From a virus, in IMG/VR virus record IMGVR_UViG_3300032224_000591, positions 103,757 to 167,756 of that record: 64,000 bases of DNA, one strand, 5' to 3'. Position 1 is the first letter of the stretch; the number at the start of each line of letters is the position of its first letter. A program made the position numbers and the translations under genes. The notes beneath the pieces were generated by a model, which saw only the letters and a list, made by a program, of their open reading frames with translations, ran no database searches and was not told where the DNA came from. Below, in pieces: positions 3,493-58,338 of the stretch.

Positions 3493-3854
3493 TGACGATG
3501 CATCTGCTGCCGGCGTTCGTCACCTCGACGAACATGAACCAGAGAAAGGTCAAGCCTAAACAGCTTGACCAGCATGACGTATGGCTGCTGAAGCGCGGGC
3601 TTCATCCAGAGCAGATCCGACTTAAGAAGATTGGTGATCCTAACTGGAAGCAGGCATACACAGAGTCTTTGCGTACCGACCGATCTAGTTATCATTCGGC
3701 AGGCATGGGTTCTGGCAAAACATCTAAAGCTGCACCCAAGGTGTATTCCGGCGAGCGCAAGCTTCTCGGCATCGCCACGATGCATAAGTCTAATATGGTA
3801 CCTGTTTTTGCTAAGCAGGATGCCGAGGATATTGCTAGGATGAGGAGAGGCTGA
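3492..3854 (+). CDS. Conserved T4-like hypothetical protein
   Basis: KVYSGERKLLGIATMHKSNMVPVF...A.DIARMRR C-terminal motif seen in T4-like phages. Confidence 0.8.
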   Translation: MTMHLLPAFVTSTNMNQRKVKPKQLDQHDVWLLKRGLHPEQIRLKKIGDPNWKQAYTESLRTDRSSYHSAGMGSGKTSKAAPKVYSGERKLLGIATMHKSNMVPVFAKQDAEDIARMRRG

Positions 3855-4027
3855 TGGATAGTGTTATGATACAGGCTCGGGATACGACAGGCAACTGGCG
3901 TACCTATCTGATCGTCATGAACGATCCTCAGCGAATTTTGAGTGAGATGCGTTCGTTGCAGTCTCGCTACCCGAGCTATCGCATTCGTGCGGTGGATGGG
4001 CATGATCGAGTGATTGACATGCTCTAA
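3854..4027 (+). CDS. 57-aa hypothetical protein (not in ORF track)
   Basis: MDSVMIQARDTTGNWRTY...; TGATG coupling. Confidence 0.6.
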   Translation: MDSVMIQARDTTGNWRTYLIVMNDPQRILSEMRSLQSRYPSYRIRAVDGHDRVIDML

Positions 4028-4111
4028 AAATAGTGATGTACAATGCCTGAAAAACAGTGTACTATATACAAGATGACAAATTGTCGTCTACTCAACATGG
4101 AGATAGTGACT

Positions 4112-4360
4112 ATGACGAATAAGACCGCAGCTCTTGTCGAAGCCTTTAAGTCCGGCAAGGAGCTCACCGCTGATCAGATCGCCTCTAAGTATGGCCTCGT
4201 CAACCCGACCGCTTCGGTCACTGCGTTGCGCAAGGCAGGCTATCCGATCTATCTGAATACTCGCAAGGGTGTTTCCAAGTATCGCCTTGGTACTCCTACG
4301 CGTAAGATGATCGCCGCTGGTTATGCTGCGCTTGGCGCACAGGCCGCTGGCCTCGTCTGA
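4112..4360 (+). CDS. Winged helix-turn-helix DNA-binding protein
   Basis: ELTADQIASKYGL.NPTASVTALRKAGYPI; own early promoter at 4037. Confidence 0.75.
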   Translation: MTNKTAALVEAFKSGKELTADQIASKYGLVNPTASVTALRKAGYPIYLNTRKGVSKYRLGTPTRKMIAAGYAALGAQAAGLV

Positions 4361-4408
4361 AAATAATTTCGCTGGAGCGGGTTTATTGCTCGCTCCAGTG
4401 CATAAATA

Positions 4409-4805
4409 GGTCGCTGTTTGAAATTGTTAATGGACGCTTCGGCGTCCACTTTAGTCTGCGCCACTTGTTGTCGCATTCTAATGTGGACTTGAAGTGTCTC
4501 TTCATGGATATACAGAGCGACGCAAGATACCTTAGTGGTTGTCGGCATAACATGCGATCTTGGTAGTGTTATGTACTGTAGGCATACAGGCTGTATATCT
4601 TTGTAGAGACAACTTATTAGGTGTGGTGTTATGGAAAACTCCAGTGTTCCTGGATAGCGCACAGTCAATGGGTCCACTGTCTGCAGGCACGGCCAATACT
4701 GAGTTGTAACTGAAAATTGGGGTTGCTCCCATGCATAAGGTTACAGAGTAAAGCGAACGGTATGGCGGTCTATCCATATCCATAACATGACATCACTCCT
4801 AATAG
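4409..4805 (+). ncRNA. Putative ~400-nt structured ncRNA, unclassified
   Basis: Follows late-type CATAAATA (4401); no credible ORF; C(UUCG)G hairpin 4431-4448 and several long-range helices. Confidence 0.6.
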
Positions 4806-4810
4806 GTTAA

Positions 4811-4885
4811 TGGCGCATAGCTCAGTGGTAGAGCACTGTCCTGATAAGACAGGGGTCGATGGATCGTAACCATCTGTGCCAACCA
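4811..4885 (+). tRNA. tRNA-Ile(GAT), atypical T loop
   Basis: Cloverleaf, loop CT-GAT-AA, encoded CCA. Confidence 0.9.
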
Positions 4886-5035
4886 GAGTGTGGTTGCTGG
4901 TGACTCGTTGTGGAACCAGCAAACTTATCAATAGTAGTGGTTCGAAACGCTGCTATCTGAGAATACACCGGTGCGCTACGTACTCGGCGAAACACCAAAA
5001 GGGTGGGGTAAGAGCCCCAATGAGTATGGAAATTC

Positions 5036-5111
5036 GGACCGTTAGCTCAGCTGGTAGAGCAGGAGACTCTTAATCTCTTTGTCGTAGGTTCGATCCCTAC
5101 ACGGTTCACCA
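5036..5111 (+). tRNA. tRNA-Lys(CTT)
   Basis: Cloverleaf, CCA. Confidence 0.95.
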
Positions 5112-5121
5112 AATAGAATAT

Positions 5122-5197
5122 GGGGACATAGCTCAGTTGGGAGAGCGTCTGATTTGCATTCAGAAGGTCTGCGGTTCGATCCCGCATGTCTCCACCA
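5122..5197 (+). tRNA. tRNA-Ala(TGC)
   Basis: Cloverleaf, G3:U70, CCA. Confidence 0.95.
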
Positions 5198-5423
5198 AGT
5201 TCAGGACTAACAGAGGAAGCAAATGGTTACCCTCTGTGAATGACAATAAGATGCTGGGAAACCCGATAAATCCAACCATGGAGTGCATCTAGTCAAGATT
5301 CTGAAACAGTGTGTGGTTACTGGTGACACTCCTAAGCTGTAGGAACCTTACTAACTATAGAGTCGCGTACGGGATGGTGTGGCTTGGCGAGGCCTGTGTA
5401 CACAACATCATCCCAACTAATTC

Positions 5424-5499
<76 letters not shown>

Positions 5500-5601
5500 A
5501 AGGCAAATAGCATCAGGTTCCAACCTGATCCAAGGGATTCGCGAGTCCCTGCTCAACGGTTGTCAGTGACGATGGGTGCTATCGGAACTGTCAAAGTTTA
5601 T

Positions 5602-5676
5602 CGCGGAGTGGAGAAGCAGAATCTCGTTTGGCTCATACCCAAAAGATCGTCGGTGCAATTCCGACCTCCGCAACCA
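5602..5676 (+). tRNA. tRNA-fMet(CAT), initiator type
   Basis: C1xA72 mismatch, anticodon CAT, CCA. Confidence 0.85.
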
Positions 5677-5698
5677 ATATAGAAGACAGGAGATTGAT

Positions 5699-5998
5699 AT
5701 GCTTAAAGTTGTAGTAGTAGCTACGGTGAGTGCAATTGCACTTGCTGGTTGTACAGCACGAGAGCAACAGCTGCTTGCAGCGGGCGCCGTAGGTGCAGTT
5801 GCTGGTGCGGTTGTTGCTAGCGAGGTGTCTCAGCCTCGTCCATACTATGTGCAGGAACGCCCATATTATGTACAGCCCCGTCCTGCATATTATGAAGAGC
5901 GTCGCCCAATCTATGTGCAACCTCATCGTCGTCCTCAATGTTTCTCCACATGGGAAAACACCCATCGTGGTATGGTAGAACGTCGCGTCTGCCGTTAA
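5699..5998 (+). CDS. Small lipoprotein with glycine zipper and Y/P/R-rich repeats
   Basis: Lipobox LAGC, GAVGAVAGAVV, repeated RPYYVQ; AGGAG RBS. Confidence 0.8.
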   Translation: MLKVVVVATVSAIALAGCTAREQQLLAAGAVGAVAGAVVASEVSQPRPYYVQERPYYVQPRPAYYEERRPIYVQPHRRPQCFSTWENTHRGMVERRVCR

Positions 5999-6005
5999 GG
6001 TTTGA

Positions 6006-6081
6006 TTCCCGATAGCTCAGCTGGTAGAGCGTCTGACTGTTAATCAGAATGTCCGTGGTTCGAGCCCACGTCGGGGAGCCA
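6006..6081 (+). tRNA. tRNA-Asn(GTT)
   Basis: Cloverleaf, CCA. Confidence 0.95.
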
Positions 6082-6252
6082 ATTCGTAGGGGTTGAGATC
6101 CTACAAATCACCACCTGTTCCGGGTTCAAGCGGTCATGGTGGATATAGGCTAGGGCTGCCTGAAGTGTCCCTGTTTCTTGGACCGTCTTCATCTCGGAAC
6201 CTACTCCGCGTAAAGGGAGAATGCTGGATGGCAGTAACCAGCGGCGAAATTT

Positions 6253-6327
6253 GATCCCATCGATTATCGGTTAAGTCACCTGCCTGTCACGCAGGAGTGA
6301 GGGGTTCGATTCCCCTTGGGATCGCCA
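6253..6327 (+). tRNA. tRNA-Asp(GTC)
   Basis: Cloverleaf, CCA. Confidence 0.92.
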
Positions 6328-6486
6328 TCTTTGTGGTAAGGAAAGCCTATGGAATACCACTCGCTGCAGCAGCGTGTATGATAGGATCGGAGTAATTGAC
6401 CGATAAAAGGAGAATGGGCAAGTCAAAGGCCTTGAAACCAATGACCAGATACCTCACCTGCCATAATTTAATATAGAGGATAGTAG

Positions 6487-7434
6487 ATGAAACCTATTGC
6501 AGTATTTTGTAAAGATCCTGAACTATCTGTCTATTGGACTCTTACAGATTTCTGTAATTTTAGTTGTAACTACTGTCCAGCTTTTCTTCATAGTGGCGAA
6601 TATCATAAAGGTATATCCAAGGGTTTTCCAACAGATGAACAGATAATTTCTTTTGTTGATAAATTAGAAGAGTTGTCTAAAACTAGAAAGCTTGAGGTTA
6701 CACTAAGCGGTGGAGAGCCTACTCTTCATCCTATGTTACCCTATATCATAGATAGACTACGGGGCAAATGCATATTATGCATAACATCTAATGGTTCAAG
6801 AGGAAATAACTTTTGGAACACAATTCTTCCTGTGTCTACTGTTCAATTATCTCTTCATCCAGAGTTTACAAAAGCTAATAAAATCAATAGTCTCTCTAGA
6901 GTTATTATTGATAGTGGCACTGTTCTGAGATATAATTTATCATGTGATCCCAATAACTGGGAAAAAGTATTAGCTCTATATGATTCTATAGATGATGAGT
7001 TTAAACCTTTTATTACCCCAAGAGTTCTACAACATTGGGGTACTCAATCTGATGTAAAGCGTATATCTCTAACATATAGTCAAGAGCAATCTGCTTGGAT
7101 TAAAGAGACGTTATTTAAGCATAGGCCATTGAATCCAGTAAACAAGTCTGATTATAAGATGTTTTTCTCTGATGGTTCATCTATATCAGCCCATAAAATG
7201 GGTGTTATAATAGTGAATGAATGGAATGATTTCAAAGGATGGAAATGTTATGCTGGGTCACAATCTATCAATGCAACCTATTCAGGTGATGTGTTTGCTG
7301 GAGTGTGTGGATCAAAATTTCTAGGTAAGATTGATAATTTCGAATTATTCAATGATCACATTATTTGTGAGAGACACCGATGTGTCTGTCTACCAGATAT
7401 TAGAGCTAACAAACAATTAATCATTCCGGAATAG
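6487..7434 (+). CDS. Radical SAM protein with C-terminal Cys-rich (SPASM/twitch-like) domain
   Basis: CNFSCNYC, SGGEPT, C-terminal C.AG...C...C...C.C; stop codon lies inside tRNA-Gln. Confidence 0.9.
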   Translation: MKPIAVFCKDPELSVYWTLTDFCNFSCNYCPAFLHSGEYHKGISKGFPTDEQIISFVDKLEELSKTRKLEVTLSGGEPTLHPMLPYIIDRLRGKCILCITSNGSRGNNFWNTILPVSTVQLSLHPEFTKANKINSLSRVIIDSGTVLRYNLSCDPNNWEKVLALYDSIDDEFKPFITPRVLQHWGTQSDVKRISLTYSQEQSAWIKETLFKHRPLNPVNKSDYKMFFSDGSSISAHKMGVIIVNEWNDFKGWKCYAGSQSINATYSGDVFAGVCGSKFLGKIDNFELFNDHIICERHRCVCLPDIRANKQLIIPE

Positions 7435-7500
7435 TTCAGCTGGTAGAACATCAGACTCTGAATCTGAGTGTCGGTGGTTCGAGTCCATCTTCCGGATCCA
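7425..7500 (+). tRNA. tRNA-Gln(CTG)
   Basis: Cloverleaf, CCA. Confidence 0.95.
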
Positions 7501-7504
7501 ATAT

Positions 7505-7595
7505 GCGTGGGCTGCAGAGACGGTGGTTCTGCGACGGACTGTAAATCCGTTCCCTAAGGGTAACATTGTAGGTTCGAATCCTTCCCCACGCACCA
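7505..7595 (+). tRNA. tRNA-Tyr(GTA)
   Basis: Long variable arm, CCA. Confidence 0.9.
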
Positions 7596-7728
7596 CTACA
7601 GGCTAGTTTTATGGTTCTCGAGATAAATAAAGCTAGGATTGTCATCGGACCGTGCCCTACTGTGCGGCTGCCGATGTAAAAGAAGCCGCGTGGCGAGTCA
7701 GGAGCCAGTTAACGGTGGGATAGTTTAA

Positions 7729-7803
7729 GTTGCCTGGGCTAGACGGTAAGGCGCGGGTCTGCAAAACCTTGAGAATCCGGTTCGACTCCGGAAGGTAACT
7801 CCA
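7729..7803 (+). tRNA. tRNA-Cys(GCA)
   Basis: U73 discriminator, CCA. Confidence 0.9.
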
Positions 7804-7820
7804 AACAAAAGGAATATAAT

Positions 7821-7934
7821 ATGCAAACAGAACATGGTGATTTTGTTTATAGGCTTTGTGGTTGGATGTATGTCTACATGAAACGTGTTGGTGAAGCATA
7901 TCACTATTACATTTCACACTCAAAGCTTCACTAA
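7821..7934 (+). CDS. 37-aa hypothetical peptide (not in ORF track)
   Basis: AAGGA RBS; fills gap between tRNAs exactly. Confidence 0.5.
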   Translation: MQTEHGDFVYRLCGWMYVYMKRVGEAYHYYISHSKLH

Positions 7935-7937
7935 TAC

Positions 7938-8015
7938 GTTTCGGTAGCTCAACTGGATGAGAGCATCGCGCTACGAACGCGAAGGTTGGGGGTTCGAATC
8001 CCTCTCGGAACACCA
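7938..8015 (+). tRNA. tRNA-Arg(ACG)
   Basis: Cloverleaf, CCA. Confidence 0.95.
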
Positions 8016-8019
8016 ATTC

Positions 8020-8094
8020 GCCGATGTAGCTCAGCGGTAGAGCACTCGCTTCATACGCGAAGGGTCGTAGGTTCAAGTCCTACTTTCGGCACCA
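8020..8094 (+). tRNA. tRNA-Met or Ile2 (CAT)
   Basis: Cloverleaf, paired 1:72, CCA; identity not resolvable by eye. Confidence 0.9.
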
Positions 8095-8099
8095 ATAAT

Positions 8100-8176
8100 C
8101 GGAGATTAGCGCAGTCTGGTAGCGTGGCTGGTTTGGAACCAGTAGGTCGCAGGTTCGAACCCTGCATCTCCGACCA
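8100..8176 (+). tRNA. tRNA-Pro(TGG)
   Basis: Cloverleaf, CCA. Confidence 0.95.
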
Positions 8177-8182
8177 CCTCTT

Positions 8183-8257
8183 GCGGAGGTAGCTCAGTGG
8201 TAGAGCTTCTGCTTGCCAAGCAGACGGTCGTGGGTTCGATCCCCATTCTCCGCTCCA
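8183..8257 (+). tRNA. tRNA-Gly(GCC)
   Basis: Cloverleaf, CCA. Confidence 0.95.
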
Positions 8258-8262
8258 TTAAT

Positions 8263-8339
8263 GCCCTCGTAGTCCAACTGGCAGAGGCGCCGGTCTTAGA
8301 AACCGGATGTTGTAAGTTCGAATCTTACCGGGGGCACCA
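8263..8339 (+). tRNA. tRNA-Leu(TAG), short variable loop
   Basis: Loop CT-TAG-AA, 77 nt, CCA. Confidence 0.92.
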
Positions 8340-8554
8340 TATTCGATGAGCAGAATCGCATCCGATCTGAGAGTAAGCCACTATGTGGACCGTCTTTTCT
8401 CAGGTGAGCTCGGGGTAAGACATCTTACATAAGCTTGGTAACCCGGATTCTGAAAAGAGGGTCGACACTCGTCCTCATCGGACCTAATAGCACGCAGGGA
8501 CCCTTGCTTTTATAGCATCGGTTCTTATTCCATAGTGAGTGTAATGCGTGTCTC

Positions 8555-8629
8555 GCATCCTTAGCTTAGCGGTAGAGCGTTCCCTTGACATGGGAGAGGT
8601 CGTTGGTTCGATCCCAGCAGGATGCACCA
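8555..8629 (+). tRNA. tRNA-Val(GAC)
   Basis: Cloverleaf, CCA. Confidence 0.95.
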
Positions 8630-8631
8630 TT

Positions 8632-8708
8632 GCCCATATAGCCAAACTGGTAAAGGCGGCAGTCTCAAAATCTGTAATCTGTAGGTTCAAATCCTACTGT
8701 GGGCACCA
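8632..8708 (+). tRNA. tRNA-Leu(CAA), short variable loop
   Basis: Loop CT-CAA-AA, 77 nt, CCA. Confidence 0.9.
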
Positions 8709-8709
8709 T

Positions 8710-8786
8710 GATTACGTAGCTCAGCAGGATAGAGCATCGGTTTCCTAAACCGAGGGTCGCATGTTCGAGTCATGCCGTGATCACCA
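8710..8786 (+). tRNA. tRNA-Arg(CCT)
   Basis: Cloverleaf, CCA. Confidence 0.95.
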
Positions 8787-8787
8787 T

Positions 8788-8863
8788 GCTGTCTTAGTGT
8801 AACTGGTAAGCACGTGAGATTGTGAATCTCGAGGTTTTGGTTCGAACCCAGAAGGCAGTACCA
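8788..8863 (+). tRNA. tRNA-His(GTG), alphaproteobacterial type
   Basis: G1:U72, A73, no encoded G-1, CCA. Confidence 0.92.
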
Positions 8864-8875
8864 TATAAATATGGC

Positions 8876-9523
8876 ATGAGGACAATTGCGCTATTCATCG
8901 ACGAGTCGTCTGACGCCGCCGCAGAGTGTGGCGATGGAATAGTTGAAGCCCTATCTCCTCATTTTCATATCAAAAGATTCACCGAGGAAGAGTGTACTGC
9001 ATCCACATTCAAGGGTGTGGATATGATTGCTTTTCCCGGTGGCGTTGGTGAGTCGGAAGACTATAACTATTTCTTTCGTCGAAAGAGAGAGATGGCTGTA
9101 GTCGAGTACCTTGCCAACGGTGGTAGTTATCTAGGAATCTGTGTCGGCGCTTATTGGGCCGGCTCGCATTATTTTGATGTACTTGATGGAGTGGATGCTG
9201 TACAATACATAAAGCGTCCAACAGCAGACATAAAACGAAGCTACAATAAAGCTATCCCAGTCACATGGAATAGCAAACCTGAGCGGATGTTTTTTAGAGA
9301 TGGCTGTGCCTTCATAGGAGATCAAACGAAGTTCGAAACTGTCGCTCGCTATGCAAATGGCGATCCGATGGCAATCATACAGGGCAAGATTGGCCTGATA
9401 GGTGCTTGTCCTGATTCATTACGTTCATGGTACATAGAACCATACAACAAACCATTTTGGCATGATGGTGCACATCATCAGTTGCTACTAGAGTTCGTAA
9501 ACAAAGTTGGAGCTTTCGTCTAG
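8876..9523 (+). CDS. Class I glutamine-amidotransferase-like (BPL-N type) protein
   Basis: MIAFPGG, GGSYLGICVGAY nucleophile elbow; late promoter TATAAATA at 8864; stop inside tRNA-Glu. Confidence 0.8.
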   Translation: MRTIALFIDESSDAAAECGDGIVEALSPHFHIKRFTEEECTASTFKGVDMIAFPGGVGESEDYNYFFRRKREMAVVEYLANGGSYLGICVGAYWAGSHYFDVLDGVDAVQYIKRPTADIKRSYNKAIPVTWNSKPERMFFRDGCAFIGDQTKFETVARYANGDPMAIIQGKIGLIGACPDSLRSWYIEPYNKPFWHDGAHHQLLLEFVNKVGAFV

Positions 9524-9585
9524 CGGTTCAGGACATCGCCCTCTCACGGCGAAGATCACGGGTTCGAATCCCGTAAGCTCTACCA
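9509..9585 (+). tRNA. tRNA-Glu(CTC)
   Basis: Cloverleaf, CCA. Confidence 0.93.
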
Positions 9586-9590
9586 AATAA

Positions 9591-9667
9591 CCCGTGTTCT
9601 TCTAAAGGCCTAGGAAAACTCGCTTTCAATGAGTGTAATGTCGGTTCGACTCCGTCACACGGGACCA
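9591..9667 (+). tRNA. tRNA-Glu(TTC)
   Basis: Loop CT-TTC-AA, CCA. Confidence 0.85.
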
Positions 9668-9671
9668 ATTC

Positions 9672-9747
9672 GCCTTCTTTGTATAGCTGGTGCGTACGCT
9701 GGTCTGAAGAACCAGAGGACTCCGTTCGATTCTGAGAGAAGGCACCA
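9672..9747 (+). tRNA. tRNA-Phe(GAA)
   Basis: Cloverleaf with a T-stem mismatch, CCA. Confidence 0.88.
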
Positions 9748-9753
9748 TAAATA

Positions 9754-9843
9754 GGAGAGTTGGCCGAGAGGCTTAAGGCACACGTTTGCTAAATGTGCGA
9801 ACCCTAACCGGTTCCGTGAGTTCGAATCTCACACTCTCCGCCA
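9754..9843 (+). tRNA. tRNA-Ser(GCT)
   Basis: Long variable arm, G73, CCA. Confidence 0.95.
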
Positions 9844-9847
9844 CTAT

Positions 9848-9921
9848 ATCGGTAAAGTGTTACGGTAGCACGATGGTCTCCAAAACCGCAAGCCTGGGTT
9901 CGACTCCTAGTACCGGTGCCA
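9848..9921 (+). tRNA. tRNA-Trp(CCA)
   Basis: Loop CT-CCA-AA, G73, CCA. Confidence 0.88.
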
Positions 9922-10124
9922 AACATATATAGTTCGTCTGCCACGGAATGTCAGTCGGAATAATAGTTAGTAGCTAGTCACTGCAACTACCGAGCCAACC
10001 GTGCCTCTAGATCTTGTTATATCAGACTGGTATAACTTAGGGAGTGACTTCCGAGATTGGCTGGATAGAGGGCGCTGCAGTGGGGCAGCAGGCAAGTAGC
10101 GGAGAGCTACACCCACAAGAATTA

Positions 10125-10208
10125 GGAGGGTAGCGTCTAAGGTAGACACACAGTCTTGAAAACTGCGCCACCTCACGGTTGATGGTTCGATTCCTTTACC
10201 CTCCGCCA
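10125..10208 (+). tRNA. tRNA-Ser(TGA)
   Basis: Long variable arm, G73, CCA. Confidence 0.9.
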
Positions 10209-10279
10209 TTATACGGTTAGTCGCGCTAAATAGACTCGTGTGGGCCACGGTTAGCCCACGACTTCAATTGGAGTTTATT

Positions 10280-10858
10280 ATGCAATTCATGAACTTATGG
10301 GCAACTCCTGTTGCCATCTTTCAAAATAGAGACTATAGAGATATTAACGCTGAGATCCTTAAGCACGAGGAACTTAGGGGTTGCACGTTTCTTAATAAGA
10401 AGGATGTGTGGGACTATAGAGATACTGTCCCAGCCTTACAAACACTATATGATTGGATGCTGGAATGCACGGCCAAGTACGCTGAAGAGTGTTTTGGTAT
10501 GGAGTATACGCCAGAGATTTTCTATCATGGCCATGGTTCAATGAACTTTCGTGGCAAGGGTGAAGAGGCACTTCTGCATACTCATCGCCTCACTACTGTG
10601 GTGATGACGTATTATATCGACGTCCATGACAATTGCGGCGACATCAGACTCCTAGACCCCAGGAGCACGCTAGGTTGGATCAGCCGTAATGACGGCAGAC
10701 CTTATAATCAGTACACACATAGTCCTAACAATGGTGAGCTTATCATGTTCCCTGGTTGGGTTACACATATGGTTGCTCAGAACCAAACTGACAAGGAGCG
10801 TGTCGCTCTTACGTCAAACGTATATCTTAAGGATGAGCACAAGGATAAAGTGTACTGA
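10280..10858 (+). CDS. Putative 2OG-Fe(II) oxygenase (TIGR02466-like)
   Basis: HTH...YY..., GDIRLLDPR, GELIMFPGW.TH.V..N....RV. Confidence 0.85.
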   Translation: MQFMNLWATPVAIFQNRDYRDINAEILKHEELRGCTFLNKKDVWDYRDTVPALQTLYDWMLECTAKYAEECFGMEYTPEIFYHGHGSMNFRGKGEEALLHTHRLTTVVMTYYIDVHDNCGDIRLLDPRSTLGWISRNDGRPYNQYTHSPNNGELIMFPGWVTHMVAQNQTDKERVALTSNVYLKDEHKDKVY

Positions 10859-11343
10859 TGGATAGATTCTATGTAATTGACGATGTCTTTGACGAGCGTA
10901 TTCGCCTCAAGATTCGTGACTTTGAATATGGTCCTGCATCACCACAGAAGTGGTATGACTTGGGTTCTAATCCAGATCATGAGAAGATCTTTGACATTGC
11001 GGTCGAGCTTGGGTTTGGATTTATTCATGGCGCCGGTATCATTGGCTATGAGATGTGGTGCAACACCAGGGCTGTTGGTTGGCATTACGATCATGATGAG
11101 GTAGCCTCGCGTGAGGCTGGTAAGCTCATCACTCCTATCTTTGCTGCTGTATACTATGCCGAGGTGGCAAACCTAGAGGGTGGTGACCTAGTGACAGAGT
11201 CACATCGTATCACACCAAAGACTAATCGTCTTGTCATCATGAGCGGTGGTTTGAAGCATGCTGTGTATCCGTATGCAGGTACACGTAAGGCCATCACAAT
11301 CAATCCATGGGATCATAAAATAATCAATGCGGGTGTGGTATAA
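10858..11343 (+). CDS. 2OG-Fe(II) oxygenase (prolyl-hydroxylase-like)
   Basis: WHYD, GGDL, PKTNRLV, H.V....G.R; stop inside tRNA-Gly. Confidence 0.85.
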   Translation: MDRFYVIDDVFDERIRLKIRDFEYGPASPQKWYDLGSNPDHEKIFDIAVELGFGFIHGAGIIGYEMWCNTRAVGWHYDHDEVASREAGKLITPIFAAVYYAEVANLEGGDLVTESHRITPKTNRLVIMSGGLKHAVYPYAGTRKAITINPWDHKIINAGVV

Positions 11344-11403
11344 GGGTTGTGCCTTAGCCTTCCAAGCTAATGAAGACTGGTTCGAGTCCAGCCATCCGCT
11401 CCA
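11329..11403 (+). tRNA. tRNA-Gly(TCC)
   Basis: Cloverleaf, CCA. Confidence 0.93.
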
Positions 11404-11415
11404 TTAAGGTACATA

Positions 11416-12156
11416 ATGTTCACATTCTTCCATCGTAAAAAGAGAGTGACGGTCGATTGCTTCACCTGCATTCCGGCAGTTCACGAGTATACACCAATCG
11501 TAAGAGCGTCTAAGACGATTCCCGATTGGTGGAAGAACTTGCCTAAAGTTGGGCCTCTTAAACGTGACGATGATGGAATATTTCAACTAGACAATAACAT
11601 GCGTCGGTGCTATGGTTTTCTAGAGCTCTACAAGCGTGGAGCTATCATTGAATCATGGACCGATGCGCACTTTGAGATAGCACCCGATACATATAGGTTC
11701 CATGTTACAATTGGTGATAAGCCTACATGGCATCTGAAAGAACAGTTCAAAGGTGGTTTCGATAACTATCATCATATTAAGTTAATGAGTCCTTGGCATT
11801 TCCGTGAGAAATCCGGAATGCCCTTTTTATTCATGGGAGCCGAATGGTCTATTGAGTTTCCATTTAAGGTTCTACCCGGAGTTGTTGAGTACCAGAACGT
11901 ATCAGGTACTCACATCAATATGATGGCTCCTAAGTATACTGATCCATACGAGATGACAATCAAGCTTGGGCAACCTCTTGTACATGTTATCCCATTACAG
12001 GACGATGTGCATGTAGACTTTAAGTCACATCTACTGACAAAGCCTGAGTTTGATAAGGTTACTCTTCACGGAGGTATATCATACGACGGTCTTCGAGGTA
12101 TGGTAGGTATGCGTAAAAGGAATGCTGAGAGGAAGTGTCCGTTTGGCTTCGGATAA
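11416..12156 (+). CDS. Conserved phage protein, dUTPase-like beta fold (DUF6065-like)
   Basis: IPDWWK, LPGVV, IKLGQPLVHVIP pattern. Confidence 0.55.
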   Translation: MFTFFHRKKRVTVDCFTCIPAVHEYTPIVRASKTIPDWWKNLPKVGPLKRDDDGIFQLDNNMRRCYGFLELYKRGAIIESWTDAHFEIAPDTYRFHVTIGDKPTWHLKEQFKGGFDNYHHIKLMSPWHFREKSGMPFLFMGAEWSIEFPFKVLPGVVEYQNVSGTHINMMAPKYTDPYEMTIKLGQPLVHVIPLQDDVHVDFKSHLLTKPEFDKVTLHGGISYDGLRGMVGMRKRNAERKCPFGFG

Positions 12157-12226
12157 ATAAACACATGAACGCATCGTTATGAAATCCTGATGATTGGTAA
12201 TCCTCAATTTCATAACGGAGTTTCAG

Positions 12227-14053
12227 ATGAAGAGATTTTTAGTAGCCCTAATTGGGCTATGCGCATTTACGTGTGCAGCCGTAGCACAGAACCTACCAGC
12301 CGGTTCGTTAGGAATCGTCAATAACAATACGCCAAACACATGGCAGACATTTACCTACTCGTTCACACCATCGACAACAGGTGCTAATTTCGTAGGTTTT
12401 GCATTTCGTCAGGATCCAGCATTCTGGACTTTCGACAATGTCAGACTAACAGCAGCTGGTTCATCAACCAACCTGCTAACTAACGGTGCCTTTGATACAG
12501 GCGGACAGTTCAGTGTAACAACCACTAACGGTCCTTCCTCTATGCAGGCACCAACTAATTGGGGCGTATGGTATCAAAATGGAACATATCCTGCTGCCGC
12601 TGGCACTTGGACTAACGTTGGGGGGACTCATGGTGGCGTATGGTATGACGGAGCTGTTGGCTCGTTCGACGGTATCTATCAAGGCGTGGCTCTCCAGGCG
12701 GGCACCACTTACACAATTTCTTTTGAAGTTAGCGGGAATCACGCTGCTGACAATGGTGCTGTTCAGCTTGGCATTTATGGCGGCGCTTGCGCAACTGTAA
12801 GTATTGCACCTAATCAGTGCACGATCCCACCATCCGCCGGATTCACTACGCTTGCTACACCTGCTCAAGGTGCAGCTGCTGGTGGACCTGCAGTTCCTAC
12901 TATCGTAAGTGAATTGCCTGGAACTCCTAGTGTATCATCATCTAGCGCCCCTGGCACATTAGTAACCACAACAGCAAGCACAAGAGGCACTTCAACAACG
13001 GCAATCGCCCGTTCAGATGCTGCTGCTAGATCCGTTAACAATATCAATATAACAAGAACTACTGTGACCACAGTTACGACGCCGGTCACAACTGTTACCA
13101 CGCGTACAACTCCTATCGTCACAACGACAACGACTATACCTAGAACAGTCACAACGTGGAGCGATGGTACCACAACGACAACTGATGGAACACCGGTTGT
13201 CACACGCACAACAACCAATCAGATTGTCACATCATCAGCAATAGCTAACGATGTACAGTCGACAACGGGAACACAATCACAGTCTGTTAGCTCTAATGGT
13301 GCTAAGAGTGCTGTGTCTTATCGTAACAATAATCCATTCATTGTCGACACACTAAGTCAGAAAGATGGTGCATGGATCAGTCCATCGGCTAGCTACTACA
13401 AGTCAGTAGGTAGCATGTCATCAGGTGGCATCGCTGCTGGTTATCAATGGACTGTTGAGAATAACACGTTCGGTACTGCATTTGCATACAACAGTGCAAA
13501 GAGTGGTGGACTAGTTGGATCTGATGTTCAAGCTGTCACCTACGATGGTGTTGCATATGCACTTAGCAAGCAGGATGGTGTTTGGTTCAAGGGAACCATT
13601 GGCTATGGTTATGGTGACTACACAACCAACACATCGATCCCACTATTTGCCCTGTACAATACGGGTAAGATGAAGCAAAAGTCATACGTAGCTGACCTGA
13701 CTCTTTACAGTGCAGCAGACTACATAGGCTTCCGTCCACTGATTGGCGCTACGATCAATAAGAGCCAGATTGAGGCTTCTGCTGCTGGTAGTCCACTATT
13801 AGACACTACGGGTGACATCAAGTCTACAACTACGGTAAATCCATATGTAGGTGCTAGATATGACTTCACAGATAGTGTGGGTATCGAGATGAGAGCCACA
13901 CAGACTAAGGACTTCAAAACAGTCGGTGGAATCCGCGCTGTTGCCAAGACTGAGCTGTTTGATGGTGTGTTCCTGAATGCTACGGTAGGACTAGATAAGG
14001 GAACAGGCTATCAAGCAGCCTCCGGAACACTAGGTATCAAGGTCGCCTTTTAA
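12227..14053 (+). CDS. Autotransporter-like outer-membrane protein with Thr-rich stalk
   Basis: Signal peptide, beta-rich N domain, T/V/P-rich linker, amphipathic C-terminal barrel ending GIKVAF. Confidence 0.7.
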   Translation: MKRFLVALIGLCAFTCAAVAQNLPAGSLGIVNNNTPNTWQTFTYSFTPSTTGANFVGFAFRQDPAFWTFDNVRLTAAGSSTNLLTNGAFDTGGQFSVTTTNGPSSMQAPTNWGVWYQNGTYPAAAGTWTNVGGTHGGVWYDGAVGSFDGIYQGVALQAGTTYTISFEVSGNHAADNGAVQLGIYGGACATVSIAPNQCTIPPSAGFTTLATPAQGAAAGGPAVPTIVSELPGTPSVSSSSAPGTLVTTTASTRGTSTTAIARSDAAARSVNNINITRTTVTTVTTPVTTVTTRTTPIVTTTTTIPRTVTTWSDGTTTTTDGTPVVTRTTTNQIVTSSAIANDVQSTTGTQSQSVSSNGAKSAVSYRNNNPFIVDTLSQKDGAWISPSASYYKSVGSMSSGGIAAGYQWTVENNTFGTAFAYNSAKSGGLVGSDVQAVTYDGVAYALSKQDGVWFKGTIGYGYGDYTTNTSIPLFALYNTGKMKQKSYVADLTLYSAADYIGFRPLIGATINKSQIEASAAGSPLLDTTGDIKSTTTVNPYVGARYDFTDSVGIEMRATQTKDFKTVGGIRAVAKTELFDGVFLNATVGLDKGTGYQAASGTLGIKVAF

Positions 14054-14107
14054 GGTGTACAAACTCTCTCCATCGTGGTATAATACTTAAATGATGGAGA
14101 GAGACAC

Positions 14108-14338
14108 ATGACTGAAGTTATCCAGTTCCCACTGCAATCTAGAGATGCTACGATTATCCAGGGAGTAGCAACTCAGCGGCCTTATAACAAGGCTAAGTAC
14201 GTTGCCCTCATCGAGAGGTTCTTGACTGAGGATGATTTCGATTTTGTGATGAGAGCCATTGAGGAACCATTCCTCTATGCTGCTCTTGAGCCTCAACTGC
14301 AAAAGATCGTTGACTGTTACTTTAGTTACGATTCTTGA
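14108..14338 (+). CDS. Hypothetical protein
   Basis: Early promoter 14056, GGAG RBS, VIQFP N-terminus. Confidence 0.7.
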   Translation: MTEVIQFPLQSRDATIIQGVATQRPYNKAKYVALIERFLTEDDFDFVMRAIEEPFLYAALEPQLQKIVDCYFSYDS

Positions 14339-14340
14339 TG

Positions 14341-14348
14341 TATAAATA
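14341..14348 (+). promoter_or_regulatory. T4-type late promoter TATAAATA
   Basis: Exact copies also at 605, 8864, 20216, 29603, 42368, 61784; variants at 4401, 12152, 29757, 33176, 37241. Confidence 0.85.
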
Positions 14349-14374
14349 AACTTACGAACACGCAAAGGTGCACC

Positions 14375-14503
14375 ATGACTAAGCAGATTACACATCGTAA
14401 TCCAGTTGCTAAGGCTCTGAAGAGCCAGTCTTGCCGTGCGCGTGTGGTCGCTGCTAAACGCGGCAAGGGTTCCTACAAACGTCAGAGCTTCAAAAAGTTC
14501 TGA
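14375..14503 (+). CDS. arfA: ArfA-like alternative ribosome-rescue factor, 42 aa (not in ORF track)
   Basis: MTKQITHRNPVAKALKSQSCRARVVAAKRGKGSYKRQSFKKF; ArfA signature R.RV...K.GKGSY.R; AAGGT RBS; late promoter. Confidence 0.8.
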   Translation: MTKQITHRNPVAKALKSQSCRARVVAAKRGKGSYKRQSFKKF

Positions 14504-14509
14504 GGTCAC

Positions 14510-14586
14510 GGATCCTTAGCTCAGTAGGTTAGAGCAGCGGTCTTTTAAACCGACGGTCCCGGGTTCGAATCCCGGAGGATCCACCA
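14510..14586 (+). tRNA. tRNA-Lys(TTT)
   Basis: Cloverleaf, CCA. Confidence 0.95.
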
Positions 14587-14731
14587 TTATTCTTATTCAA
14601 AGTTTTATATCATGTGCAATCTACGTGACTTTATTATGGTAGTGATTATGTGCAACTTGATTGCAATCTTAGCATCTTGTGTTATAATTGCATTGAGTTA
14701 TTGGAATTAGAAACAAACAAGGAGCAATAAA

Positions 14732-15283
14732 ATGCAAAAGACTATCATTACGGCGCTTGTTCTTCTTGCGTCGACAGCAGTGGCTTCGGCTACTGATCTG
14801 CCAAGCAAGACGAAGGCACCGTCTCTACCCACTCTAGCTCAGTCAACAGACTTCTACGCTGGTGTGAATGCAGGCGGTAACTTCAACGATGCACGCGTCT
14901 ATTCTGGTGGTGCTGTTGCTGGCTGGAACGTCCTACCGTTCCTCGCAGTAGAAGGTACATACGACTTTTCTGTTCCACAGAATAAGATCAAGGGTGATTA
15001 CAACTACCAGAATACGGTTGCTGTAAACGCTGTACCGCAGTACAAGGTTCCCGCTCTTCCAGTCACTGTCTATGCACTAGGCGGCGCTGGCTATCGCTGG
15101 AACACTGCAGCTACCGTAGCGGATATTTCCGTTTATAACTTCGGTGCTGGTGCTAAGTATGAGTTTGCTAAGGGGATCGAAATCGATGGTCGCTACCGTC
15201 GTATTGATGCCATTGAGTCAAAGAACCGTACTTCGACTTCGGCCGAAGATCGTGCTACGATTGGTGTGAACGCAAAGTTCTAA
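14732..15283 (+). CDS. Omp25/RopB-like 8-stranded outer-membrane beta-barrel
   Basis: Signal peptide then ATDLPSKTKAP, FYAGVNAG, C-terminal IGVNAKF. Confidence 0.85.
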   Translation: MQKTIITALVLLASTAVASATDLPSKTKAPSLPTLAQSTDFYAGVNAGGNFNDARVYSGGAVAGWNVLPFLAVEGTYDFSVPQNKIKGDYNYQNTVAVNAVPQYKVPALPVTVYALGGAGYRWNTAATVADISVYNFGAGAKYEFAKGIEIDGRYRRIDAIESKNRTSTSAEDRATIGVNAKF

Positions 15284-15293
15284 TCTAGTACTA

Positions 15294-15331
15294 AGCTCAG
15301 GCGCAGTGATCACAGATACTGCGCCTGAGTT
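15294..15331 (+). terminator. Hairpin after OMP gene, probable terminator
   Basis: CTCAGGCGCAGT...ACTGCGCCTGAG. Confidence 0.6.
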
Positions 15332-15403
15332 GTATGCAAATAGCAGTGTACAAACCTGACCGGCGTGATATAATATACTAATGAATAAGACGAGGTTAAC
15401 ACT

Positions 15404-15760
15404 ATGAATGATTTCAACACAGCACTGACTAAAAACTATACGAAGTTGTCGCTCATCACGGTAGCTTCATTATCGAGTACCCTTGGTCTTCGTACCGAGT
15501 TAGCTATCATCCTGAATGATATGGCCATGGCTACGTGGATCTCTATCATGTGGGTTTTTATCATCATCGCCGTCTTGGCCTACTACAAGTCTAAAGCTGA
15601 TGTTGAGTTGGAAAAGTTTCGCGAGGGCGAGAAAAATCGCATCTTGATGGGTCTAAAACCACTCTCCACGTATACATACACAGGCCAGTCTGAACAGGTG
15701 ATTGGCAAGGAAACATTGGATCGCCTAAACTCAGTGGATACTAAAGTTAGGGAGAAGTGA
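15404..15760 (+). CDS. Membrane protein, hypothetical
   Basis: Early promoter 15347; hydrophobic segment. Confidence 0.7.
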   Translation: MNDFNTALTKNYTKLSLITVASLSSTLGLRTELAIILNDMAMATWISIMWVFIIIAVLAYYKSKADVELEKFREGEKNRILMGLKPLSTYTYTGQSEQVIGKETLDRLNSVDTKVREK

Positions 15761-18039: not shown

Positions 18040-18707
18040 AAGTAAACATTGGTCCCTATTTGACTTGGTACGGTCCTTATCAGATCGCTGATATGATTTT
18101 CTTTTGGATTAAGACCAGGGGCATTTATCTGAAGGATGATGACCCGCTCAATGAGCGTTGGGACTATGTAGCAAAAGAAAAGTTTGGTGACTGGCTGGCT
18201 GATACTTGGGTTGCTAATTTCTGTAACTGGATCCAGGATAAGCGTAAGCGCACAGAAAAGGTTGAGATTCATCATTATGACGTATGGTCCATGGATCACA
18301 CGCTCGCGCTTATCATTCATCCTATGCTGGTAAAGCTAAAGGAACAGAAACATGGGGCTCCCTTTACCGAGGATAAAGATGTTCCAGAGCATTTGCGCTC
18401 TACCTCTGCACCTCCGCTGACTGAAGATGAAAAAAACTGTGGTTCTACTGATAAGCTGTTCTTCGATCGCTGGGAATATATTCTTAATGAGATGATTTGG
18501 GCTTTCTATCAAGCTGCAAAAGACGATCCGGACGCGCCTGAACAACCTAAATTCTATACGCGCAAGCTGCTTGACAATGATTTCGATGATTCTCCTGATA
18601 ACGTTGAAGCTTGGAAAAACTATCAAGTGGAAAATGTCAAGTTTGAGAAGCGTAAAGAGAACGGTTATTTGCTATTTGGTAAATACTATCGTGGGCTGTG
18701 GGACTGA
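18036..18707 (+). CDS. Conserved T4-like hypothetical protein
   Basis: DVWSMDHTLA.II.PML, RW.YIL.EMIWAF, G..LFGKYY.GLWD. Confidence 0.8.
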   Translation: MKVNIGPYLTWYGPYQIADMIFFWIKTRGIYLKDDDPLNERWDYVAKEKFGDWLADTWVANFCNWIQDKRKRTEKVEIHHYDVWSMDHTLALIIHPMLVKLKEQKHGAPFTEDKDVPEHLRSTSAPPLTEDEKNCGSTDKLFFDRWEYILNEMIWAFYQAAKDDPDAPEQPKFYTRKLLDNDFDDSPDNVEAWKNYQVENVKFEKRKENGYLLFGKYYRGLWD

Positions 18708-57707: not shown

Positions 57708-57860
57708 ATGGGAACCGATTATCTATGTGAACAATGCGATGCAGAGTATCAAGTCATTCATCGCGAGAAAGATCCAGTGTCCTTTTGTCCCTTTTGTGGG
57801 TGGCAGAAGGATCTAGATGAAGAAACTGAGGAAGACGAAGAGCTCTGGGACGACGAGTAG
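57708..57860 (+). CDS. 50-aa zinc-ribbon protein with acidic tail (not in ORF track)
   Basis: CEQC...CPFCG. Confidence 0.7.
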   Translation: MGTDYLCEQCDAEYQVIHREKDPVSFCPFCGWQKDLDEETEEDEELWDDE

Positions 57861-58270
57861 TGTCCTACGAAAATCCGTGGACCTATGAAGGTAACTTAGT
57901 AGATGAAGAATTAGTGTACAATCATGTTGGTTTTGTGTATAATATAACCAACATGACAACAGGTAGAAGCTACATTGGTAAGAAGCTTTTCACTAAGGCT
58001 AAGACTAGGCAAGTGAAGGGTAAGAAGAAGCGAACTAGAGTAGCGTCTGACTGGATGGATTACTACGGCTCGAATAAAGAGTTACAAGCTGATGTAGAGC
58101 AACTAGGTATCTACAACTTCAAAAGAGAGATACTAAGACTATGCAAAACCAAGGGCGAGTGCAACTATTGGGAGGCTCGATACCAATTCGATTATCGAGT
58201 TCTCGAGTCTAACGACTATTATAATTCGTGGATCATGGTTAAAGTCCACAAAGCGCATCTGCCCATGTAG
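57860..58270 (+). CDS. GIY-YIG-like endonuclease
   Basis: GFVYNIT...SYIGKK, YYGS, FKREIL; stop inside tRNA-Leu. Confidence 0.8.
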   Translation: MSYENPWTYEGNLVDEELVYNHVGFVYNITNMTTGRSYIGKKLFTKAKTRQVKGKKKRTRVASDWMDYYGSNKELQADVEQLGIYNFKREILRLCKTKGECNYWEARYQFDYRVLESNDYYNSWIMVKVHKAHLPM

Positions 58271-58338
58271 GCCAACTGGTTAGAGTCAGCGGACTTAAAA
58301 TCCGCACAGTGTCGGTTCGAATCCGACCATGGGCACCA
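58261..58338 (+). tRNA. tRNA-Leu(TAA), short variable loop
   Basis: Loop CT-TAA-AA, 78 nt, CCA. Confidence 0.93.

What the first reader, a model, noticed from the sequence alone, without database searches (positions are those of the whole stretch)
6487..11403. CDSs whose stop codons sit inside tRNA 5' ends: built-in non-stop mRNAs paired with a phage ArfA
Seen: radical SAM stop TAG 7432-7434 is inside tRNA-Gln (starts 7425); BPL-N-like stop 9521-9523 inside tRNA-Glu (9509); 2OG oxygenase stop 11341-11343 inside tRNA-Gly (11329); GIY-YIG stop 58268-58270 inside tRNA-Leu (58261). Known: RNase P cuts at tRNA position 1; non-stop mRNAs are handled by tmRNA tagging (degradation) or ArfA/RF2 (release untagged). 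Inference: tRNA maturation removes the stop and the last 3-4 codons, so output of these four enzymes would be set by competition between host tmRNA and the late phage ArfA-like protein (14375): a possible processing-coupled switch. Alternative: neutral compaction that reuses stop triplets naturally present in tRNA D-arm regions.
Basis: partly seen in the sequence, partly recalled or inferred. Interest (0 to 1): 0.8.

Follow-up and report, generated by a model that had tools for sequence, protein, structure and literature searches.

The report
Phage genes ending inside tRNA genes
In the tightly packed tRNA island of a 168-kb T4-like phage, four real genes take their stop codon from the first 15 bases of the next tRNA gene; phage T5 and other tRNA-rich phages show the same packing by-product, and comparison gives no link to this phage's ArfA rescue factor.

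Summary
The first in-frame stops of the radical-SAM, BPL_N-like, 2OG-oxygenase and SegE-like GIY-YIG genes fall at tRNA positions 8-10 or 13-15. The tRNA 5' ends are confirmed by ARAGORN and, for the three junctions in the scanned range, by Infernal. The 42-aa ArfA-like ORF is also real.

- Phage T5, which has no arfA, has stops inside tRNAs at 4 of 11 gene-to-tRNA junctions. This phage also has 4 of 11.
- Two other complete arfA-less phages, DSS3_MAL1 and Vibrio 70E37.1, have two such overlaps each.
- The closest relative keeps the overlaps at the same orthologous genes. It has no arfA in its 107 kb, including the matching slot.
- A relative that does carry arfA shows no overlaps in the tRNA region sampled.

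In this genome 20 of 32 tRNAs carry TAG at positions 8-10, so tRNA 5' ends act as ready-made backup stops. About a third of gene-to-gene junctions in the genome also overlap. The few residues encoded by tRNA bases are not conserved between orthologues.

Best reading: compaction of a tRNA island, long tolerated. Transcripts cut by RNase P would indeed lack a stop codon, but that was not tested here. The phage also carries its own tmRNA, which the finding missed. This scan had already noted gene/tRNA overlaps in T5-like phages.

The parts
6487..7434 (+). Radical-SAM gene (315 aa). Its stop TAG 7432-7434 is U8-A9-G10 of tRNA-Gln, and the last 2.3 codons (..I-P-E) are tRNA bases.
   Evidence: The orthologue in G001 is 72% identical and ends the same way, inside tRNA-Leu(UAG).
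7425..7500 (+). tRNA-Gln(CUG), with CCA encoded
   Evidence: ARAGORN; Infernal 66.8 bits with model position 1 at 7425
8876..9523 (+). BPL_N / GATase-like gene (215 aa from ATG 8876). Its stop TAG 9521-9523 is tRNA-Glu positions 13-15, and the last 4 codons (G-A-F-V) are tRNA bases.
   Evidence: The G001 orthologue ends at TGA, positions 12-14 of tRNA-Ser(GCU).
9509..9585 (+). tRNA-Glu(CUC)
   Evidence: Infernal 65.1 bits
10858..11343 (+). 2OG-Fe(II) oxygenase gene (161 aa). Its stop TAA 11341-11343 is tRNA-Gly positions 13-15, and the last 4 codons (A-G-V-V) are tRNA bases.
   Evidence: The G001 orthologue ends at TAG, positions 8-10 of tRNA-Leu(CAA).
11329..11403 (+). tRNA-Gly(UCC)
   Evidence: Infernal 45.9 bits
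57860..58270 (+). SegE-like GIY-YIG homing-endonuclease gene (136 aa). Its stop TAG 58268-58270 is tRNA-Leu positions 8-10. The gene is specific to this lineage: G001 has no copy and carries a promoter at that place instead.
58261..58338 (+). tRNA-Leu(UAA)
6093..6254 (+). 53-codon ORF whose TGA overlaps tRNA-Asp (6253-6327) by 2 nt. It is conserved in G001.
14375..14503 (+). ArfA-like 42-aa gene with its own TGA stop. TATAAATA lies at 14341-14348, and a 6-nt spacer separates the gene from tRNA-Lys(UUU) at 14510-14586.
   Evidence: The arrangement is conserved in contigs L091-L094.

Best explanation
These are ordinary products of extreme compaction in a phage tRNA island, and they have been tolerated for a long time.

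In this 168-kb T4-like phage, tRNAs and small enzyme genes are co-oriented and packed almost without spacers: 1-6 nt between tRNAs and 4-10 nt or less between a gene and the next tRNA. tRNA 5' regions carry conserved stop-like triplets, U8-A9-G10 (TAG) and N13-A14-R15 (TAA or TAG). A gene that abuts a tRNA can therefore lose its own stop, or have a tRNA block or a mobile endonuclease gene inserted at its end. It is then still closed 3-5 codons later.

The tail residues are dictated by the tRNA and are dispensable for the protein, so the arrangement costs little and persists. Once a gene overlaps a tRNA, only rearrangements that break exactly at tRNA position +1 keep both products working. That explains why orthologues in two phages end inside different tRNAs at the same point of the protein.

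Inferred, not shown: normal termination happens on the unprocessed co-transcript. Molecules already cut by RNase P lack a stop and would be cleared by the general rescue systems. This is a side effect, not a switch tuned by the phage ArfA.
For: 1. tRNAs as backup stops. 20 of 32 tRNAs in this genome have TAG at positions 8-10 and 7 have a stop at 13-15. 32 of 96 tRNA reading frames close within 16 nt. All four overlaps use exactly these triplets.

2. Matching compaction. tRNA-to-tRNA spacers are 1-6 nt. Five other gene-to-tRNA junctions have spacers of 4-10 nt. About 34% of gene-to-gene junctions overlap.

3. Same frequency without arfA. T5 has 4 of 11, all already in the deposited annotation (hegC, hegD, T5.057, T5.069), and no PF03889 match. 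DSS3_MAL1 has 2 of 6, and one of the two genes is confirmed as phrog_9995 at E 3e-32. Vibrio phage 70E37.1 has 2 of 5, with one confirmed as phrog_23579. Neither has arfA.

4. Close relatives. G001 has 4 overlaps at the orthologous radical-SAM, 2OG (two genes) and BPL-like genes, with different tRNA partners. It has no arfA in 107 kb or in the syntenic slot. G002 has arfA at 40 bits but 0 of 3 overlaps.

5. Unconserved tails. The tRNA-encoded tails differ between orthologues: PE against PL, GAFV against WRVG, AGVV against PV. More distant radical-SAM orthologues end about 3 residues earlier, with their own TAA and a 4-nt spacer before a tRNA.

6. A recent insertion. The SegE-like gene is absent from G001, where a TTGACA-17-TATAAT promoter precedes the same tRNA. 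Homing endonucleases wedged into tRNA clusters are known from T4 SegB (PMC2330249) and from the T5 heg genes.
Against: - The overlaps at three orthologous genes have survived 28-50% protein divergence and changes of tRNA partner. That fits selection for the overlap as well as mere tolerance of it.
- Overlaps of 10-15 nt are rarer among gene-to-gene junctions: about 12 of 152 are 8 nt or longer.
- The three phages of the alpha-type tmRNA group that have overlaps (G000, G001, DSS3_MAL1) all carry a phage tmRNA. A looser link with ribosome rescue is therefore not excluded.
- No RNA or protein data could be obtained.
- The hosts of T5 and of the Vibrio phage probably have their own ArfA, so absence of a phage arfA does not remove ArfA from those systems.
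Confidence: 0.7

Rival explanations
1. RNase P processing turns the four mRNAs into non-stop mRNAs. Output of the four enzymes is then set by competition between tmRNA tagging, which leads to degradation, and the late phage ArfA with RF2, which releases a protein lacking 3-4 residues. That would be a processing-coupled temporal switch.
For: - The geometry is right: cleavage at +1 removes the stop and 3-4 codons.
- The ArfA-like gene is real and lies behind a T4-type late-promoter motif, TATAAATA.
- The tail residues are dispensable, so ArfA-released products would probably be active.
- A TATAAATA motif also directly precedes the BPL-like gene.
Against: - It fails its own co-occurrence test. 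Overlap frequencies are equal or similar in arfA-less T5, DSS3_MAL1 and 70E37.1.
- G001 keeps the overlaps at the orthologous genes without arfA in 107 kb, though that record is only 65% complete. The arfA-bearing G002 shows none.
- The fourth gene is a selfish homing endonuclease inserted recently, which is an unlikely member of a regulated enzyme set.
- The phage adds its own tmRNA as well, so it raises both arms of the supposed competition.
Confidence: 0.07
2. A looser functional link. Operons punctuated by tRNAs, together with phage-induced mRNA decay, create a heavy load of stop-less mRNAs. Phages with large tRNA islands therefore carry general ribosome-rescue capacity, here a tmRNA plus ArfA. 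The gene/tRNA overlaps contribute to that load but are not individually regulated.
For: - G000, G001 and DSS3_MAL1 all combine overlaps with an alpha-type permuted tmRNA.
- Streptomyces phage BillNye also pairs a large tRNA island with a tmRNA.
- arfA sits inside the tRNA region, 6-7 nt before tRNA-Lys, in all five contigs that carry it next to that tRNA.
Against: - G005 has a tmRNA but 0 of 3 overlaps.
- T5 has overlaps and neither an arfA nor an annotated tmRNA in the region viewed.
- Vibrio phage 70E37.1 has overlaps and neither an arfA nor an alpha-type tmRNA.
- Translation-related genes cluster in large phages for many reasons.
- The sample is small, most relatives are fragments, and there is no phylogenetic correction.
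Confidence: 0.17
3. Annotation artefact. On this view the ORFs are truncated pseudogenes or have miscalled ends, or the tRNA 5' ends are misplaced, so no functional gene really ends inside a functional tRNA.
For: - The SegE-like product has only the GIY-YIG domain (136 aa) and could be a remnant.
Against: - Two independent tRNA finders agree on the 5' ends.
- The acceptor stems are intact in the sequence.
- Three genes align to their orthologues up to the last few residues.
- No earlier in-frame stop exists.
Confidence: 0.03

Closest known systems
Gene 3' ends overlapping tRNA 5' ends in the phage T5 tRNA region (NC_005859: T5.057/tRNA-Met, hegD/tRNA-Gln2, hegC/tRNA-Ser2, T5.069/tRNA-Asn)
   Same: Genes and tRNAs are interleaved on one strand. 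4 of 11 gene-to-tRNA junctions have the stop inside the tRNA, and homing-endonuclease genes are among them.
   Different: T5 is an unrelated siphovirus (Demerecviridae). Its stops lie at tRNA positions 4, 12, 21 and 22 rather than 8 and 13. T5 encodes no ArfA. Here three of the four genes are enzymes, not endonucleases.
Mitochondrial tRNA punctuation (mRNA ends made by tRNA excision; from general knowledge, reviewed in PMC4394434)
   Same: mRNAs are flanked by tRNAs with no spacer, so tRNA 5' processing would define the mRNA 3' end.
   Different: Mitochondria complete partial stop codons (T or TA) by polyadenylation. Here a complete stop lies inside the tRNA and would be lost on processing. 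No processing data exist for this phage.
E. coli arfA regulation (RNase III cleavage makes arfA mRNA non-stop; tmRNA represses ArfA; PMC10107115, PMC8012679)
   Same: It involves an endonucleolytic cut that removes a stop codon, tmRNA/ArfA competition, and an ArfA-family protein with the KGKGSY motif.
   Different: The phage ArfA ORF has its own TGA stop, and at 42 aa it has already lost the C-terminal part that RNase III cutting removes from the 72-aa E. coli protein. The genes proposed to become non-stop are other genes. Nothing has been shown experimentally.
T4 SegB, a GIY-YIG homing endonuclease inside the T4 tRNA gene cluster (PMC2330249)
   Same: A Seg-type GIY-YIG gene sits directly beside a tRNA gene in a T4-like phage. 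This one is lineage-specific, as expected of a mobile gene.
   Different: The best Pfam match of this gene is the SegE-type GIY-YIG domain. It is only 136 aa and ends inside tRNA-Leu. Its endonuclease activity is untested.

Membership tests
Gene/tRNA overlaps of phage tRNA islands (T5 type) | A same-strand protein gene whose first in-frame stop lies in the 5' part of the next tRNA gene | tested here: met
   Four junctions, with stops at tRNA positions 8-10 or 13-15
Gene/tRNA overlaps of phage tRNA islands (T5 type) | Both partners look functional: an intact tRNA and a conserved protein | tested here: met
   Infernal 45.9-66.8 bits for three of the tRNAs, full model length; the fourth, tRNA-Leu(UAA), was found by ARAGORN only. 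Pfam hits. Orthologues align to the C-terminus.
Gene/tRNA overlaps of phage tRNA islands (T5 type) | Occurs whether or not the phage carries a rescue factor | tested here: met
   T5, DSS3_MAL1, Vibrio 70E37.1 and G001 have overlaps and no PF03889 match
ArfA (Pfam PF03889) | Score at or above the Pfam gathering cut-off | tested here: inconclusive
   25.3 bits against a cut-off of 25.5, and 23.6 bits in the six-frame search. The homologue in G002 scores 40 bits. 88%-identical metagenome proteins carry a precomputed PF03889 hit; one of the two (P0003) is named ArfA by JGI. Single-sequence phmmer against ArfA chains in the PDB gives only E 0.58.
ArfA (Pfam PF03889) | KGKGS(Y) motif followed by a basic tail | tested here: met
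   The translation reads ...AAKRGKGSYKRQSFKKF
ArfA (Pfam PF03889) | Recruits RF2 to ribosomes stalled on non-stop mRNA | not testable with these tools
   Needs biochemistry, and the host is unknown
Programmed non-stop mRNA control (E. coli arfA type) | The stop codon is removed by a demonstrated endonucleolytic cut | not testable with these tools
   RNase P cleavage at +1 is inferred from general tRNA biology.
Programmed non-stop mRNA control (E. coli arfA type) | Functional dependence on, or co-occurrence with, the rescue factor | tested here: not met
   There is no association of overlaps with arfA across 10 phage records
Mitochondrial-type tRNA punctuation | Incomplete stop codons completed after tRNA excision | tested here: not met
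   All four genes have complete TAG or TAA stops lying inside the tRNA. Nothing upstream of +1 forms a partial stop.

The most novel reading that the evidence does not exclude
Phage tRNA islands may work as tRNA-punctuated operons. On this reading, RNase P excision routinely produces stop-less mRNAs for the embedded genes, and translation of the gene end in turn delays maturation of the overlapped tRNA. Phage-encoded tmRNA and a short ArfA with its own stop codon would then have been acquired to manage this self-inflicted load of non-stop mRNAs. Retention of the overlap at the same protein position in two diverged phages, despite a swap of tRNA partner, would reflect selection for this coupling.
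Probability: 0.1. Interest if true: 0.6.

Novelty: new member of a known kind. Interest (0 to 1): 0.25.

Why it matters
As it stands this is an annotation point, with one practical consequence. Gene callers that mask tRNAs first drop genes of this type: the phrog_9995 gene of DSS3_MAL1 is missing from its GenBank record. Phage tRNA islands are therefore probably more gene-dense than the databases show.

The mechanistic question remains open and could be tested in T5, where the same architecture exists in a tractable host. How much translation of such genes happens on RNase P-cut, stop-less mRNA? Does ribosome traffic over the first 15 nt of a tRNA delay its maturation?

The evidence here does not support a specific ArfA-controlled switch.

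Tried and rejected
- Complete relative: a 169.7-kb metagenome contig carrying the G001-type island was found (L090). Its record is not held for whole-record searches, so absence of arfA in that lineage rests on the 107-kb, 65%-complete G001 record.
- Literature: four searches and one badly set search found no paper that treats phage gene/tRNA overlaps as sources of non-stop mRNA. They also found none describing a phage-encoded ArfA. Absence from the open-access library is not proof of absence.
- Promoter and terminator scan of 3500-15500: counts were within the shuffled expectation, and no + strand terminator lies between any of the genes and its tRNA.
- Near-identity DNA search against deposited phages gave only tRNA-sized hits. 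No cultured close relative was found.
- No SmpB, RF-1-domain (ArfB, RF1, RF2) or Pth homologue exists in the phage genome.
- Considered and rejected: that the precise tRNA +1 boundaries in G000 and G001 require a special mechanism for moving tRNA cassettes. Survivorship explains them, since only breaks exactly at +1 keep both the gene and the tRNA.

Full report
**What the window is.** The window is the last 64 kb of a 167,756-bp virus record with direct terminal repeats, 43% G+C. The genome has 32 tRNA genes and T4-type late-promoter motifs: TATAAATA occurs 8 times against 3.2 expected. I call it T4-like on that basis, and earlier notes of this scan report T4-type genes elsewhere in the genome. 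No close cultured relative exists in the deposited phage collection.

Infernal independently confirms three of them at 7425, 9509 and 11329. The raw sequence and codon-level parsing give these gene ends, where [marks tRNA position +1:
- radical-SAM gene: ...ATC AT[T CCG GAA TAG
- BPL_N-like gene: ...GTT [GGA GCT TTC GTC TAG
- 2OG oxygenase gene: ...AAT [GCG GGT GTG GTA TAA
- SegE-like gene: ...CAT CT[G CCC ATG TAG

The stops are therefore U8-A9-G10 (twice) and positions 13-15 (twice). Pfam supports all four proteins. The BPL_N-like gene starts at ATG 8876, not 8822. A 53-codon ORF overlaps tRNA-Asp by 2 nt, and a doubtful 40-codon ORF ends at TAG 8-10 of tRNA-Thr.

**Why tRNAs close reading frames.** In this genome 20 of 32 tRNAs have TAG at positions 8-10 and 7 have a stop at 13-15. 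A third of all tRNA reading frames close within 16 nt. A gene that runs into a tRNA is therefore often ended after 3-5 extra codons.

**How packed the region is.**
- tRNA-to-tRNA spacers are 1-6 nt.
- Of 11 solid gene-to-tRNA junctions, 4 stop inside the tRNA, 1 overlaps by 2 nt, 5 have spacers of 4-10 nt and 1 is distant.
- By a crude ORF call, 52 of 152 same-strand gene-to-gene junctions overlap, mostly by 1 or 4 nt.

The share of overlapping gene-to-tRNA junctions matches the genome's general packing. The overlaps are longer only because the first usable stop in a tRNA lies at positions 8 or 13.

**Relatives.** The radical-SAM protein recovers 76 viral contigs, 15 of them with tRNAs near the gene.

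The closest relative is G001 (72% identical radical-SAM protein, 107 kb, 65% complete). Its orthologues of the radical-SAM, BPL-like and both 2OG genes each end inside a tRNA, but a different one:
- radical-SAM gene into tRNA-Leu(UAG), position 8
- 2OG gene b into tRNA-Leu(CAA), position 8
- 2OG gene a into tRNA-His, position 13
- BPL-like gene into tRNA-Ser(GCU), position 12

For the radical-SAM and BPL-like genes, tRNA +1 sits at the same alignment position of the protein, within 1 nt. The present phage simply has extra tRNA blocks (Gln through Gly; Glu, Glu, Phe) inserted exactly at that boundary. The tRNA-encoded tails are not conserved: PE against PL, GAFV against WRVG, AGVV against PV.

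More distant radical-SAM orthologues end about three residues earlier. They have their own TAA and either a 4-nt spacer before tRNA-Arg or no tRNA at all.

I read this as loss of an old stop, followed by long tolerance. Once a gene overlaps a tRNA, only rearrangements that break exactly at +1 keep both products, and that explains the precise boundaries.

The SegE-like gene is absent from G001. There a TTGACA-17-TATAAT promoter precedes the same tRNA-Leu(UAA). This fits a recent insertion of a mobile endonuclease, as known for T4 SegB (PMC2330249).

**The ArfA link.** The 42-aa ORF is ArfA-like. It matches PF03889 at E 1.1e-5 and 25.3 bits against a cut-off of 25.5, and it has the KGKGSY motif. 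A 45-aa homologue in G002 scores 40 bits. Two metagenome proteins 88% identical to it carry a precomputed PF03889 hit, and JGI names one of them ArfA. It has its own TGA stop 6 nt before tRNA-Lys(UUU). That arrangement is conserved in four short metagenome contigs.

| Record | Junctions with stop inside the tRNA | arfA (PF03889) |
|---|---|---|
| This phage (G000) | 4 of 11 | present |
| T5 (NC_005859) | 4 of 11, all in the deposited annotation | none |
| DSS3_MAL1 | 2 of 6 (one gene is phrog_9995, E 3e-32, unannotated) | none |
| Vibrio phage 70E37.1 | 2 of 5 (annotated; one gene is phrog_23579) | none |
| G001 (65% complete) | 4 of 10 | none in 107 kb or in the syntenic slot |
| G002 (fragment) | 0 of 3 | present |
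| Aeromonas P19, Vibrio R10Z, Streptomyces BillNye | none | none |

**A missed element.** The phage also encodes an alpha-type permuted tmRNA with tag ANDNAPLVMALAA. It has no SmpB, RF-domain protein or Pth. G001, G005 and DSS3_MAL1 also carry such a tmRNA. The phage thus adds to both rescue arms, which does not fit a simple switch between host tmRNA and phage ArfA. A looser link between tRNA islands and rescue capacity remains possible. It is not shown: G005 has a tmRNA and no overlaps, while T5 and 70E37.1 have overlaps and no such factor found.

**Mechanism, with what is shown and what is inferred.**
- Shown: the geometry, the reality of the genes and tRNAs, the conservation pattern, and the lack of association with arfA.
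- Inferred from established RNase P and ribosome-rescue biology (PMC8012679): complete translation requires the unprocessed co-transcript, and molecules cut at +1 lack a stop and would be handled by tmRNA or ArfA.
- Not testable here: what fraction of translation occurs after cutting, and whether ribosomes covering the first 15-30 nt of the tRNA delay its maturation.

**Verdict.** The ArfA-coupled switch is not supported. Compaction with tRNA-provided backup stops is the best explanation (about 0.7). A general link between tRNA islands and rescue factors is the main live alternative (about 0.17).

Noticed in passing
G000:C1:15208-15648 (outside the window; L005 409-796): The phage encodes an alpha-type permuted (two-piece) tmRNA with tag ANDNAPLVMALAA, directly followed by tRNA-Arg(UCU). 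Rfam scores are RF01849 106.7 bits and RF04321 107.8 bits. No SmpB gene exists in the genome. The alpha-type tmRNA hints at an alphaproteobacterial host, where ArfA is unusual.
   Followed up: partly
L002 4245-4322 and 8254-8328 (relative G001; also present in L090): The closest relative carries two suppressor-type tRNAs, with anticodons UCA (reads UGA) and CUA (reads UAG). The present phage has neither. In G001 three of the four stops that lie inside tRNAs are TAG or TGA, so read-through into the tRNA is conceivable there.
   Followed up: no
L085 8577-8927 (Bacteriophage DSS3_MAL1, MN602268.1, about 12835-13185): A 116-aa gene matching phrog_9995 (E 3e-32) is missing from the GenBank annotation. 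Its stop TAG lies at positions 8-10 of tRNA-Val(UAC). Gene callers that mask tRNAs first probably drop such genes systematically. A second candidate lies at L085 11457-11897 and runs into tRNA-Arg.
   Followed up: partly
window 14108-14586; L091-L094: The order 75-78-aa ORF, then arfA, then a 6-7-nt spacer, then tRNA-Lys(UUU) is conserved in four short metagenome contigs whose ArfA is 88% identical. RNase P cutting plus slight 3' trimming could make the arfA mRNA itself stop-less. That would echo E. coli arfA control with a different nuclease. This is pure speculation.
   Followed up: partly
window 8864-8878: A TATAAATA motif starts one base after the CCA end of tRNA-His and ends 4 nt before the BPL-like ATG (8876). 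The leader is at most 12 nt and has no Shine-Dalgarno match. Either the transcript is nearly leaderless or the motif is a chance match.
   Followed up: no
L007 about 18055-18110, compared with window 57860-58270: In G001 a near-consensus sigma-70 promoter (TTGACA, 17 nt, TATAAT) sits directly before tRNA-Leu(UAA). In this phage the same place holds the SegE-like gene. This looks like a case of a homing endonuclease replacing a tRNA promoter region.
   Followed up: partly
window 7425-9921: tRNA-to-tRNA spacers inside the arrays are only 1-6 nt and every tRNA encodes its CCA. Processing must separate adjacent tRNAs with almost no leader or trailer.
   Followed up: no
L086 10442-10862 (Vibrio phage 70E37.1): A GOLLD RNA is annotated inside that phage's tRNA island. 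It was seen only in the deposited annotation.
   Followed up: no
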